A stretch of 63,027 nt of DNA, filler included, from Kipferlia bialata (Eukaryota), in assembly GCA_003568945.1 (NCBI GenBank). It is 5 parts of 5 records of this genome, joined end to end, with 100 filler letters (N's around TTAATTAATTAA, not from the genome) between each part and the next. Parts side by side here need not be neighbours in the genome. Positions count along the whole stretch, not along the records: positions 15,503 to 30,896 come from BDIP01000707.1; 4 more parts are not named here. One strand, 5' to 3'. The stretch's first letter is position 1, and each line of letters begins with the position of its first letter. A model generated the notes under the pieces. It was given only the letters and a program-made list of their open reading frames with translations, made no database searches and was not told the origin of the DNA. The translations under genes were made by a program, and so were the position numbers. Of the stretch, positions 15,590 to 18,726 are shown in pieces.

Positions 15590-18500
15590 AGTTTGACGGA
15601 CACATTGTCAACTGGGACTCCCTTGGTGCCCGTATGCGTTCCTACTACGAGATTGAGCAGACCACCAAGAAGCCCCAGAGGAAGAGAAACTTTGGCGTGC
15701 GTGTGCCCATGCCCGAGCTCCCCGCTGACTTCCGTGCCCAGAACTTCATGGAGGTGGCTCTTGGATACACCGAGGAGCTTGCCCAGGCCGAGGCTGCCAG
15801 GTGCCTGCAGTGCAAGAAGCCCAAGTGCCGCGGCTCCTGCCCCGTGTCTGTGGACATCCCCACCTTCATCCGCAAGGTATGCATCATTCTCTCTCTCTCT
15901 CTCTATATATATATATAAAAACATACATACACATACTGGTACTGACCCCAGGTGACCGAGAAGGACTACCACGGCGCCCTCGACGTCATCAAGCAGAACA
16001 ACGCCTGCCCCGGTATCACTGGCCGTGTGTGCCCCCAGGAGGTGCAGTGCGAGTCCACCTGTGTGCTTGGCGAGAAGGGTCTCAACCGTGGCGCCATTGC
16101 CATTGGCCGCCTCGAGAGGTTTGTGGCTGACTACTGCCGCAAGAACCCCAAGCCCGAGCCCACCGTGACCATCGCCCACTCTGGCTGCAAGGTGGCCGTT
16201 GTCGGATCCGGCCCCGCCGGTATCGCTGCCGCCGCTGGCCTCGCCCAGCGTGGACACAGGGTGACCATCTTTGAGGCCCTGCACACTGCTGGTGGTGTGA
16301 CTGCCTTTGGCATCCCCTCCTTCCGTCTCCCCAAGGACCTTGTGCAGCACGAGATTGACGCCCTCACCAACGTCGAGGGCGGCCAGCTCATCGACATCCG
16401 CCTCAACACCCCCATCGGCCCCTGCGGCTCTGTGCCGGAGCTCATGGCCAACGGCTACGACGCCGCCTTCATCGGCACCGGTGCCGGTCTCCCCTACTTC
16501 CTCAACCTGCCCGGCGAGGACATCCCAGGTGTGTACTCCGCCAACGAGTACCTCACCCGCATCACCCTCATGCGCTCCTACGAGTTCCCCGCCAAGGTGG
16601 ACACCCCCGTGCTCAAGGCCAAGTCTGTCGTGGTCATTGGCGGCGGCAACGTTGCCTGCGATGTGGCCAGGTGTGCCAAGAGGCTGGGCGCCGACGTCAC
16701 CATGGTGTACAGAAGGCCCATCGCCAAGATGCCTGCCAGGCGCGAGGAGATCCACCACGCCATCCAGGAGGGCATCAAGGTGAAGGAGTGCTTCTCCCCC
16801 GTCGAGTTCATCGCCAACTGCGAGGGCACCGGCCTCAAGGGCGTGCTGTGCCAGAAGATGGACAACTCGGACCCCACCAAGAGGCCCACCCCCATCCCCA
16901 ACTCCAACGAGCTCGTCTCCTGCGGACTCGCCGTCATTGCCGTCGGCCAGGGCCCCAACCCCATGCTCACCAAGAACTGGCCCGAGCTCGCGACCTCCTC
17001 CCGCGGCCTGATCCTCGTCGACGACAAGGGCATGTCCAACATCCCAGGTGTCTTCTCCGGCGGAGACATTGTCTCTGGCGCCGCCACCGTCATCAACGCT
17101 CTTGGTGCTGGCCGCAAGTGTGCCGAGGGCATCGACGCCTGGCTCAAGCAGGAGGGCAAGGGCTCCTCCTCTCTGCGCGGTCTCCCCGTGCGTGGAGGCC
17201 TCCCCATCGTTGGTGCCGACAAGAACACCCCCACCATGACCCCTCTGCAGCTCAAGATCGCCCAGGTCAAGGCCAACCACGACGCCAAGAGGCAGCACCT
17301 CTCCGCCAACGCCCCCGTCGCCGTCCTCCCCCGCGTTGAGGCTGTGACCCTCCCCACTGTCCTCAAGGGACCCGAGCCCATTGCCATGGAGGCCCCCGCC
17401 CCCACCGCCACCGGTCTCTCCATGAAGGAGGACGTCCCTGACGTTGTGGATGTCTCCTCTGCCTCCATCATGCTCGACACCGCAGACTGTGTGTCCTGCG
17501 GTGCCTGTGTCGAGGCCTGCTCCTCTGTCATGGCCATGGATGTGCTTGAGATGGGCGAGGAGGGCTACCCCGTCGTGGGCGCCAAGGTGAAGCTCGCCGA
17601 CTCCGACTGCATTGGATGCGGTGCCTGTGTGCGCGCCTGCCCCGTCAACGCCATCCAGGGCACCCCCTCCATGGAGGCTGTCCTCGACGCCATCGAGTCC
17701 GACAAGAGGGCCAAGGTGTGTCTCGTTGCCCCATCCTGCAAGGTTGGTGTCTACGAGGTGCTCTACGGCGTCCCCGGCAACGGCGAGAAGCAGACCATCG
17801 CTGGTCTCCGCAACATGGGCTTCGACTACGTCATTGACGTGCAGACCGGTGCCGATATGACCATCGCTGAGGAGAGCAAGGAGCTCCTCGAGCGCGTGCA
17901 GACCGGCCGCCTCCCCCTCCTCACCTCCTGCTGCCCCTCCTGGACCAGGATGGCAGAGACCCAGTACCCCGAGCTTGTCCCCCACCTCTCCTCCGCCAGG
18001 TCCCCCCAGGCCATGACTGCCGCCACTGCTAGGGCCTACTTCGCCAAGACCCTCGGCTGCCGCCCCTCCGACATCTACATTGCCTCCCTCATGCCCTGCA
18101 CCGCCAAGAAGAGCGAGATCAGGCGCAAGCAGCTCGAGGGCGACTGTGACGACGTCATCACTGTGCGCGAGTTCATGGCCCACCTCCAGGCTGAGGAGGT
18201 CTCCGTCGAGCACGCCAACACCGAGTTCGACGCCCTCTCCGACGGCAAGTCCGAGCACTCTGGGGCTGCCACCATCTTCGGCACCAGCGGCGGTGTCATG
18301 GAGGCCGCCCTCAGGTCCGTTGCCCTCAAGCTTGGCGGCGACTGGAAGGGCCTCGACCTGCAGGCCATCCAGGGCCTGGACGGGATCAAGGAGGCCGAGG
18401 TGTCGATGAAGGGGCACCACCTCAAGGTGTGCGTGGTGTCTGGGGGCCTCAACATCCGCGCCGCCCTCAAGGCCATGAAGGACAAGGCCAGGTACTACGA

Positions 18501-18726
18501 CGTCATTGAGGTCATGGCCTGCCCCGGTGGCTGCATCGGAGGCGGCGGCATGCCCCAGTACGCAGACGACGAGGAGGTGCTGGCTGCCAGGATGAAGGTG
18601 CTCCGCAAGATTGACGAGGAGTCTGCCGTCAGGACATCCGACAACAACTCTGAGATGGCTGTCATCTACAACGACGTCATTGGAGACAGGGCCCACGAGC
18701 TCCTCCACACCACCTTCGACCAGTAA
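15590..18726 (+). CDS. NfnA/SudB C-terminal end + NfnB/SudA/GltD flavoprotein + 2[4Fe-4S] ferredoxin + [FeFe]-hydrogenase H-domain fusion; 5' partial; exons 15590-15876 and 15952-18726
   Basis: Exon 1: EFDGHIVNWDSLGARMRSY (NfnA/SudB-like C-terminus), then ARCLQCKKPKCRGSCPVSVDIP. A 75-nt phase-0 intron (GTATGC...CTGACCCCAG) follows. Exon 2: GRVCPQEVQCESTC, IGRLERF, GSGPAG, GGGNVACD, YRR, GDIVSG; CVSCGACVEAC and CIGCGACVRACP; H-cluster motifs TSCCPSW, MPCTAKKSE, EVMACPGGCIGGGG; terminal HELLHT. Strong C/G third-position bias. Confidence 0.95.
15877..15951 (+). other. spliceosomal intron in the hydrogenase fusion gene
   Basis: GTATGC donor, (CT)n/(TA)n interior with an in-frame stop, ACTGACCCCAG branch point/acceptor; removal restores TFIRK|VTEKDY. 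Confidence 0.93.

What the first reader, a model, noticed from the sequence alone, without database searches (positions are those of the whole stretch)
15590..18726. Single-chain Nfn/Sud flavoprotein-[FeFe]-hydrogenase fusion in a eukaryote
Seen: one reading frame carries a complete NfnB/SudA/GltD module (two Fe-S motifs including IGRLERF, FAD and NADPH Rossmann motifs, GIPxFRLP), a ~90-aa linker, a 2[4Fe-4S] ferredoxin domain and an intact H-cluster domain (all three signature motifs). The first visible residues EFDGHIVNWDSLGARMRSY follow a splice acceptor and resemble the C-terminus of the partner subunit NfnA/SudB (CVDGPEFDxHxVDFDxLxxR), so the full protein probably also contains NfnA. Established: prokaryotic NfnAB is a flavin-based electron-bifurcating NADH/NADPH/ferredoxin transhydrogenase. 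Inference: the ferredoxin partner is hard-wired to a hydrogenase, giving a self-contained bifurcating enzyme that could couple NADPH oxidation to NAD+ reduction and H2 production (or the reverse), mechanistically distinct from HydABC/NuoEF types. I recall sulfide-dehydrogenase/hydrogenase fusions being noted in other anaerobic protists, so the architecture may not be wholly new; bifurcation here is untested.
Basis: partly seen in the sequence, partly recalled or inferred. Interest (0 to 1): 0.88.

Follow-up and report, generated by a model that had tools for sequence, protein, structure and literature searches.

The report
Nfn transhydrogenase fused to protist hydrogenase
In the oxygen-avoiding flagellate Kipferlia, one gene joins a bacterial-type NADPH/NAD transhydrogenase (Nfn) to a hydrogen-forming enzyme, likely as a single chain of about 1,315 residues, which is predicted to split the electrons of NADPH between NAD+ and hydrogen gas.

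Summary
The fusion is real, with two corrections. The visible gene is two exons split by a 75-nt intron, not one frame. The window is five separate contigs joined by artificial linkers, so the 5' exons lie elsewhere. The protein is the partial Kipferlia bialata entry GCA62452.1. Its missing NfnA half (GIQ86294.1, 295 aa, another contig) ends one residue before this exon's protein begins; joined length would be 1,315 aa. A spliced RNA contig carries 788 extra nt 5' of the exon (letters not seen). Full NfnA-NfnB-2[4Fe-4S]-hydrogenase chains occur in Dysnectes, Pygsuia and one unnamed metagenome protein; none turned up in the prokaryote-type hits examined. All published Nfn motifs and all H-cluster motifs are intact, and the NfnA half resembles NAD-using NfnI more than NfnII. 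Best reading (0.5): 2 NADPH + NAD+ + H+ -> 2 NADP+ + NADH + H2, with the tethered hydrogenase replacing ferredoxin. Bifurcation, domain docking and H-cluster maturation are untested. I recall the Pygsuia fusion being reported in 2014 as a sulfide dehydrogenase fusion but could not read that paper. The scan had not found this on other DNA. Verdict: new variant of a known kind.

The parts
15403..15502 (.). Artificial linker (N44, 12-mer, N44) between separate contigs; not part of the gene
   Evidence: Four identical linkers cut the window into 5 pieces. The piece 15503-30896 is 15,394 bp, the contig length on record for the protein.
15503..15589 (+). 3' end of an intron (contig starts inside it), pyrimidine tract and acceptor AG at 15588-15589
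   Evidence: Sequence. The RNA contig leaves the DNA here.
15590..15876 (+). Exon: split Glu codon, C-terminal helix of NfnA (about 15590-15651), then the start of NfnB with the first [4Fe-4S] motif (from 15799)
15877..15951 (+). 75-nt GT..AG intron with in-frame stops
   Evidence: skipped in RNA contig record 1 of run X1 (table 8)
15952..18726 (+). Last exon, 924 codons plus stop: rest of NfnB, linker, ferredoxin-like domain, hydrogenase
   Evidence: GC3 0.87
15700..17154 (+). NfnB module (two [4Fe-4S], b-FAD, NADPH site), interrupted by the intron; Arg220 of P0003 at 16324-16326 aligns with T. maritima Arg187
   Evidence: 435 bits to T. maritima NfnB 4ylf_B; model matches 4ylf_B at TM 0.92 (target-normalised), rmsd 2.0
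17155..17463 (+). About 103-aa Ala/Pro/Val-rich linker, mostly low confidence, one helix
   Evidence: pLDDT <50 at residues 504-523 and 545-591
17464..17652 (+). 2x[4Fe-4S] ferredoxin-like (F) domain of the hydrogenase
   Evidence: Pfam Fer4 families; Cys motifs at residues 608 and 648
17707..18717 (+). [FeFe]-hydrogenase H domain and small-subunit region, motifs L1-L3 intact
18727..18944 (+). 3' UTR up to a poly(A) addition site near 18944
   Evidence: A contig of run X2 ends in an A-run behind 18944 (table 7)

Best explanation
The gene likely encodes one chain, NfnA-NfnB-linker-2[4Fe-4S]-[FeFe]-hydrogenase, that is predicted to work as a self-contained electron-bifurcating NADPH-oxidising hydrogenase, probably in the cytosol. 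Shown: the NfnB-to-hydrogenase fusion in the DNA, its splicing and polyadenylation, and intact cofactor motifs in every module. Strongly inferred: the separately deposited NfnA piece is the 5' part of the same gene. Inferred from characterised NfnAB: NADPH reduces the b-FAD; one electron goes down to the Asp-ligated [2Fe-2S] cluster, a-FAD and NAD+; the other is pushed to the two low-potential [4Fe-4S] clusters. Inferred and untested: the tethered F domain takes ferredoxin's place at the distal cluster and passes electrons to the H-cluster. Net: 2 NADPH + NAD+ + H+ -> 2 NADP+ + NADH + H2. In the cell this would vent NADPH as H2 at H2 pressures where plain NADPH or NADH hydrogenases stall. Together with a malate-type NADH-to-NADPH shunt (inferred; cofactor use of Kipferlia's malic enzymes not tested) it would vent part of glycolytic NADH.
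For: One exon from inside NfnB to the stop. One spliced RNA contig of 3,665 nt runs from 788 nt 5' of the exon to 18537. P0123 ends at CVDGP; the window continues E-FDGH; the RNA contig matches back over the Pro-Glu codons. Full chains in Dysnectes (1,284 aa, 66% to P0001), Pygsuia (1,331 aa, 42%) and P0006 (1,227 aa, 41%). All motifs given for Nfn in PMC6405883 section 8 are met. The NfnA half scores 258 and 226 bits to NAD-using P. furiosus NfnI-S and T. maritima NfnA, against 116 to NfnII-S (no NAD activity per the review) and 49 to PyrK. Natural contrast: 4 of 4 hydrogenase-fused members keep the NfnA [2Fe-2S] and NAD motifs, while 2 of 3 hydrogenase-less members of the same clade lost them. 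CpI residues E279, E282, R286, C299 and S319 are conserved (their proton-path role is recalled). At NADP -370 mV and NAD -280 mV the reaction gives -8.9 kJ at 1 atm H2, against +8.5 for plain NADPH and +25.9 for plain NADH. Acidic N-termini in 3 of 3 complete eukaryotic starts argue against organelle import (charge count only, no predictor run).
Against: No activity data exist in anything I read. The linker varies by about 50 residues among the four members (79-131 between fixed marks) and is modelled as largely disordered, with pTM 0.58, so no fixed electron path is shown. The NfnB motifs are also present in P. furiosus NfnII, so they do not prove NAD-linked bifurcation. One hydrogenase-less relative (P0034) keeps the NfnA motifs, so the contrast is imperfect and small. 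I never saw the 788 upstream letters, so their identity with P0123 is inferred. Maturases are described as organelle-targeted when present (PMC11316075 passage), so a cytosolic H-cluster may not be built. Consuming NADPH and making NADH is not an obvious need for a fermenter. With drawn-down NADPH the reaction is uphill at 1 atm H2 (+6.6 kJ).
Confidence: 0.5

Rival explanations
1. Both modules are active but talk through a soluble ferredoxin or flavodoxin; the fusion only co-localises them. Nfn then mostly runs the classic way (reduced ferredoxin + NADH -> NADPH) and the hydrogenase vents surplus ferredoxin electrons from pyruvate oxidation.
For: Long, variable, disordered linker. NADP+ reduction is the stated physiological direction of Nfn (PMC6405883). 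Kipferlia has PFO copies with and without targeting signals (PMC5874029 passage). 3 of 160 prokaryote-type loci carry a separate hydrogenase gene upstream of nfnAB.
Against: The hydrogenase keeps only the 2x[4Fe-4S] domain next to the tether. The order has been kept in Fornicata and a breviate. A 100-residue tether would give a very high local concentration (inference).
Confidence: 0.22
2. A non-bifurcating NADP(H)-linked hydrogenase: NfnB acts as a plain NADPH flavin entry, as in GltD or dihydropyrimidine dehydrogenase, and works only at low H2; NfnA is a structural passenger.
For: NfnB is homologous to GltD and DPD. Bacterial [2Fe-2S]-GltD-like-HydA chains without NfnA exist (P0010, P0012, P0283). 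Plain NADPH-to-H2 is feasible below about 0.03 atm H2.
Against: NfnA cofactor motifs are kept in 4 of 4 fusions although they decayed in 2 of 3 unfused relatives. Both the NfnB and H domains branch away from the bacterial GltD-HydA chains.
Confidence: 0.13
3. The hydrogenase module is not matured in the cytosol and serves only as an iron-sulfur electron conduit or store for a working Nfn.
For: Acidic N-terminus. Maturases are organelle-targeted when present (PMC11316075 passage). The H domains of P0005 and P0006 are fast-evolving.
Against: All H-cluster ligands and the proton-path residues are conserved in the Kipferlia protein. Hydrogenases are reported to gain activity without maturases in some systems (PMC9161772 passage).
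Confidence: 0.08
4. A sulfur-reducing enzyme (sulfide dehydrogenase or sulfhydrogenase-like) that passes electrons from H2 or NADPH to polysulfide.
For: P. furiosus NfnI was first named sulfide dehydrogenase for this activity, and diplomonad homologues are annotated so (PMC6405883 section 7; PMC6397501 passages).
Against: No sulfur-specific domain in Pfam or NCBIfam scans. The review treats the enzyme as Nfn. The NAD-binding branch is intact.
Confidence: 0.07

Closest known systems
NfnAB / NfnI of Thermotoga maritima (4YLF/4YRY) and Pyrococcus furiosus (5JCA/5JFC); fused Pattern B Nfn
   Same: Both subunits' folds and motifs, A-before-B order as in Pattern B.
   Different: A 2x[4Fe-4S]-[FeFe]-hydrogenase is appended. 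None of the four Nfn patterns described in the passages and sections read of PMC6405883 has one.
Diplomonad sulfide dehydrogenase (Pattern D Nfn of Spironucleus; Giardia Sud)
   Same: Eukaryotic single-chain NfnA-NfnB. Three unnamed hydrogenase-less proteins (P0034, P0290, P0296) fall in the same 100/99 clade, and two have lost the [2Fe-2S] motif as described for Giardia. Their organisms were not identified.
   Different: No hydrogenase domain; they may be truncated descendants of the fusion (inference).
Pygsuia biforma protein GCRY01000624 (P0005) and Dysnectes brevis P0004
   Same: Same architecture; NfnB domains in one clade; H domains in one clade with weaker support.
   Different: Different species. 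I recall Stairs et al. 2014 naming the Pygsuia protein a sulfide dehydrogenase-hydrogenase fusion and reading it as sulfur-linked; not checked, paper not held.
Group A3 HydABC and eukaryotic HydA + NuoE/NuoF
   Same: Group A H domain (best PDB hydrogenase hit is the T. kivui HydA); links nicotinamide pools to H2 by bifurcation.
   Different: No NuoF or NuoE domain. Substrates would be NADPH and NAD+ rather than NADH and ferredoxin.
Group A2 (glutamate synthase-linked) hydrogenases and bacterial [2Fe-2S]-GltD-like-HydA chains
   Same: A GltD-family flavoprotein paired with a group A hydrogenase.
   Different: Those chains lack NfnA, start with a [2Fe-2S] domain, and branch apart in both trees.
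CysJ-fused long hydrogenases of Trichomonas, Stygiella, Pygsuia, Pelomyxa and Preaxostyla
   Same: Predicted cytosolic, single-chain, NAD(P)H-linked protist hydrogenases (passages). Their H domains are among the nearest relatives.
   Different: Their flavin module is C-terminal flavodoxin-FNR, judged likely non-bifurcating in PMC10579272. Here it is an N-terminal Nfn.

Membership tests
NfnAB (NfnI type) | NfnA a-FAD strand ERxPxT | tested here: met
   Present in P0123, P0004, P0005; P0006 starts after it. P0123 lies outside the window.
NfnAB (NfnI type) | Asp-ligated [2Fe-2S] motif DGTGMCGxCRx10CV | tested here: met
   P0123, P0004, P0005; P0006 has Q for R
NfnAB (NfnI type) | NAD-binding domain of NfnI type, not NfnII type | tested here: met
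   258 and 226 bits against 116; the glycine-rich motif aligns with NfnI and differs in NfnII
NfnAB (NfnI type) | NfnB cluster motifs RCx2Cx4Cx3CPV and GRVCPQExQCx3C..GxxER | tested here: met
   Residues 70 and 119 of P0003
NfnAB (NfnI type) | Arg at N5 of b-FAD (T. maritima Arg187) and two Arg for the NADP 2'-phosphate | tested here: met
   R220 aligns with R187; YRR at 348. Also present in NfnII, so necessary, not sufficient. Assigning YRR to the two Arg of the review is my reading.
NfnAB (NfnI type) | NfnA and NfnB in one enzyme | tested here: inconclusive
   End-to-start fit, RNA extension of fitting size and full orthologues; the upstream RNA letters were not seen
NfnAB (NfnI type) | NAD+-dependent reduction of a low-potential acceptor by NADPH | not testable with these tools
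   Needs an enzyme assay
Group A [FeFe]-hydrogenase | H-cluster motifs L1, L2, L3 and small-subunit region | tested here: met
Group A [FeFe]-hydrogenase | Family model score | tested here: inconclusive
   TIGR02512 375 bits, below its 406 cut-off; Pfam PF02906 240 bits, above cut-off. The HydDB classifier was not available.
Group A [FeFe]-hydrogenase | Matured H-cluster and H2 turnover | not testable with these tools
   Needs FTIR or activity
Group A3 (HydABC, bifurcating) | NuoF-type partner domain or subunit | tested here: not met
   No NuoF family in P0001, P0004, P0005 or P0006; a separate partner elsewhere in the genome could not be searched
Group A2 (glutamate synthase-linked) | GltA/GltD domain in the gene downstream of the hydrogenase, no NuoF | tested here: not met
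   Rule from PMC5037454. Here the GltD-family domain is upstream and in the same chain, with NfnA.
CysJ-fused long hydrogenase | C-terminal flavodoxin-FAD-NAD module | tested here: not met
   Stop codon follows the small-subunit region

The most novel reading that the evidence does not exclude
A eukaryote-built, single-chain electron-bifurcating hydrogenase that uses the Nfn flavin rather than a NuoF module, needs no ferredoxin, and makes H2 from NADPH at the expense of NAD+. It would have been assembled once from a laterally acquired bacterial nfnAB and a protist hydrogenase, shared between Fornicata and breviates, and later truncated to give diplomonad 'sulfide dehydrogenase'.
Probability: 0.4. 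Interest if true: 0.87.

Novelty: new variant of a known kind. Interest (0 to 1): 0.7.

Why it matters
If it works as predicted, it is a type of bifurcating hydrogenase distinct from HydABC and the NuoE/F-linked forms, and direct evidence that a eukaryote uses Nfn-type flavin bifurcation; the Nfn review (PMC6405883, section 7) calls the activity of the eukaryotic homologue unknown. It offers an answer to how cytosolic hydrogenases of fornicates get low-potential electrons, a gap named in PMC6397501. H2 is an easy read-out, so a one-gene enzyme would make bifurcation simple to assay. It would also be a natural template for NADPH-driven H2 production. The complete Dysnectes sequence makes the test possible now.

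Tried and rejected
1. Looking for NfnA exons in the window: tblastn with 5 N-terminal queries found nothing under E 0.4 apart from the known exon; the upstream DNA is another contig.
2. The whole genome is not held, so the P0123 contig's DNA, paralogues and partner genes could not be read.
3. A second read-laying meant to show the upstream RNA letters returned no loose-end row.
4. Complex prediction of NfnB with the hydrogenase was not available, so docking has no verdict.
5. Bacterial contamination rejected: spliced GT-AG intron, poly(A) tail, and eukaryote-type genes (WD40, kelch) on other contigs of the window.
6. Chimeric gene call rejected: the NfnB-hydrogenase junction lies inside one exon and inside one RNA contig.
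7. Descent from bacterial GltD-HydA chains rejected by both trees.
8. Prokaryotic version of the fusion not found: 0 of 150 representatives, 0 of 117 new proteins, 0 of 80 metagenome loci and 0 of 80 genome loci. These blanks are weak.
9. Run X4 and the unlaid runs X5 and X6 have small shares, and RNA depths cannot rank genes; none of this was used as evidence.
10. A literature search for the DIED motif gave 0 papers.
11. Earlier scan notes concerned other proteins or the CysJ type.
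Full report
What is in the DNA. The region holds two exons, 15590-15876 and 15952-18726, split by a 75-nt GT..AG intron with in-frame stops. 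The second exon is 924 codons without a stop and carries most of an NfnB/GltD-family flavoprotein, a linker of about 103 aa, a 2x[4Fe-4S] domain and a complete group A H domain. The spliced product is identical to the partial Kipferlia bialata protein GCA62452.1, 1,019 aa, annotated as glutamate synthase. The window is five pieces separated by four identical N44-12mer-N44 linkers. The gene's piece (15503-30896) is 15,394 bp, the contig length on record, and begins 87 bases before the exon. So the 5' exons cannot be in the window, and tblastn found none.

Transcript. Of 6 runs listed, 4 were laid. In run X1 one 3,665-nt contig aligns without mismatch to 15586-15874 and 15950-18537, skipping the intron, and has 788 nt in front that do not lie on the stretch. 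A contig of X2 ends in an A-run behind 18944. The tool marks X1-X3 as RNA by guess only; the splicing supports it for X1. A second laying did not show the upstream letters.

The missing half. Searching shorter proteins with the Dysnectes N-terminus gave, as the best of 8,000 candidates, K. bialata GIQ86294.1 (P0123, 295 aa, partial, on a 6,385-bp contig, 73% identical). It ends at the CVDGP motif; the window's protein starts at FDGH; the single Glu between them in the orthologues is the codon split by the acceptor. The RNA contig matches four bases back over the acceptor, which reads Pro-Glu in frame; this is weak alone. The joined length would be 1,315 aa against 1,284 in Dysnectes. The 788 nt cover about 263 of the 294 codons needed.

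Relatives. Among the 120 listed hits (4,828 hits in 7,997 candidates), 3 other proteins have NfnA, NfnB and an H domain: Dysnectes brevis P0004, Pygsuia biforma P0005 and the unnamed metagenome protein P0006, whose organism is unknown. No further case appeared in 150 representatives, 117 new long hydrogenases, or 80 + 80 metagenome and genome loci; 3 of those 160 loci have a separate hydrogenase gene upstream of nfnAB. These blanks are weak, for the reasons given under Tried and rejected.

Trees. NfnB domain, 52 of 248 held rows (non-redundant, nearest to the query, plus chosen ones): the four fusions and three hydrogenase-less proteins (P0034, P0290, P0296) form a 100/99 clade. The fusion label needs 2 changes, because the three group with Pygsuia (96/86). 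The nearest outside rows are bacterial fused NfnAB proteins, one from a cluster named Verrucomicrobiota (87/86, unstarred), so the donor is not resolved; the bootstrap had not fully settled. H plus F domain, 57 of 149 rows: the four fusions form one clade at 100/98 under LG+G4, with a long-branch warning, apart from the bacterial GltD-HydA chains. With the mixture model, 33 rows and one long row left out each time, the grouping held at only 77 and 89. One fusion event with later loss is the simplest reading but is not proven.

Is it an Nfn? PMC6405883 section 8 lists the motifs. All are met in Kipferlia (P0123 plus P0003), Dysnectes and Pygsuia. Against solved structures the NfnA half scores 258 bits to P. 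furiosus NfnI-S, 226 to T. maritima NfnA, 116 to NfnII-S and 49 to PyrK; the review says NfnII has no NAD+-dependent activity and differs in this domain. The NfnB half scores 435 bits to T. maritima NfnB against 237 to glutamate synthase small chain, with Arg187 conserved, but NfnII shares these features. All 4 fusions keep the NfnA [2Fe-2S] and NAD motifs; 2 of 3 unfused clade members lost them and 1 kept them. This suggests selection on the high-potential branch in the fusions, on small numbers.

Structure. AlphaFold2 on P0003 with 65 sequences gave mean pLDDT 87 but pTM 0.58, with most of the linker below 50. Foldseek matched NfnB (4ylf_B, TM 0.92 by target length, rmsd 2.0) and CpI (TM 0.70) as separate parts. 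Only 3 other rows hold both domains, so the model says little about docking. The complex predictor was not available.

Mechanism. Nfn chemistry with the hydrogenase as the low-potential sink gives 2 NADPH + NAD+ + H+ -> 2 NADP+ + NADH + H2. With NADP at -370 mV (from the review) and NAD at -280 mV (textbook value, recalled) this is -8.9 kJ at 1 atm H2, equilibrium near 36 atm, against 0.03 atm for plain NADPH and 3e-5 atm for plain NADH. At standard state there is no gain, and with drawn-down NADPH the equilibrium falls to 0.07 atm. H2 evolution is thus the likely direction. Kipferlia has malic enzyme and PFO copies with and without targeting signals, and HydE/F/G (PMC5874029 passages). The acidic N-termini point to the cytosol, where maturation is an open problem. 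I put 0.5 on direct coupling, 0.22 on coupling through a soluble carrier, 0.13 on a plain NADPH hydrogenase, 0.08 on an unmatured H domain and 0.07 on sulfur reduction.

Literature. Ten library searches gave no listing that describes an Nfn-hydrogenase fusion; most listed papers were seen as title and abstract start only. Read as sections: PMC6405883 section 7 and part 1 of 2 of section 8, plus passages. Read as passages only: PMC6397501, PMC7985675, PMC4989108, PMC11216029, PMC5874029, PMC7449678, PMC4967309, PMC11316075, PMC5437931, PMC10703272, PMC5037454, PMC9161772, PMC10579272 and bioRxiv 10.64898/2026.04.11.717937. The fusions those passages name are CysJ, NuoE/F or [NiFe]-hybrid types. 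Supplement searches: PMC4989108 (3 files searched, 1 not searched; no 'sulfide') and PMC11216029 (7 files, no hit). Not held: Stairs 2014, Stairs 2015, Leger 2017. These and their supplements bear directly on novelty: I recall Stairs 2014 reporting a sulfide dehydrogenase-hydrogenase fusion in Pygsuia, so the architecture is probably not new, while I found no text reading it as a bifurcating Nfn.

Verdict. A real, expressed, conserved and rare fusion of two known machines, with a clear and testable mechanism that nothing I read has tested. New variant of a known kind; interest 0.7.

Noticed in passing
window 15403-15502, 30897-30996, 42606-42705, 58084-58183: Four identical artificial linkers; the window is five separate contigs, so neighbourhood across them means nothing.
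   Followed up: yes
P0123, P0004, P0005 N-termini; P0296 C-terminus (outside the window): A DIED motif sits in the first 10 residues of the three complete fusion starts and at the very end of P0296; 5 of 546 held proteins contain it. Possibly a short signal for cytosolic Fe-S delivery (guess); one paper search found nothing.
   Followed up: partly
P0029 and P0286 (outside the window): NfnA-NfnB chains with a basic, acid-free N-terminus like an import signal and built-in ferredoxin-like domains in front: candidate organelle-targeted eukaryotic Nfn with its own ferredoxin.
   Followed up: partly
P0290 and P0296 (outside the window): Clade members with a decayed NfnA, intact NfnB and a 55-80 residue tail but no hydrogenase; they fit the description of Giardia Sud and may be truncated relics of the fusion. 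Organisms not identified.
   Followed up: partly
window 18085-18119 and 18503-18548: Other contigs of run X1 match short stretches at H-cluster motifs L2 and L3 and then diverge: further expressed hydrogenase paralogues.
   Followed up: no
L069 2602-7897, L071 2620-7901, L122 3614-7626: Loci with a separate [FeFe]-hydrogenase gene upstream of nfnA-nfnB on the same strand; L122 is a Treponema genome.
   Followed up: no
P0289 (outside the window): A 906-aa protein joining FrhB (F420-binding) domains to an NfnB module, 14 cluster members.
   Followed up: no
P0280 (outside the window): A 4,122-aa record with seven H domains, five with near-identical scores, plus flavodoxin; probably an assembly artefact of a CysJ-type hydrogenase.
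   Followed up: no
window 31157-32461, 39180-41153, 58300-59187, 61117-62301: Ordinary genes on the other contigs: WD40, helicase C-terminal, kelch and DUF4200 matches; 13 of 17 frames scanned had no Pfam hit, including an 843-codon frame at 52739-55270.
   Followed up: no
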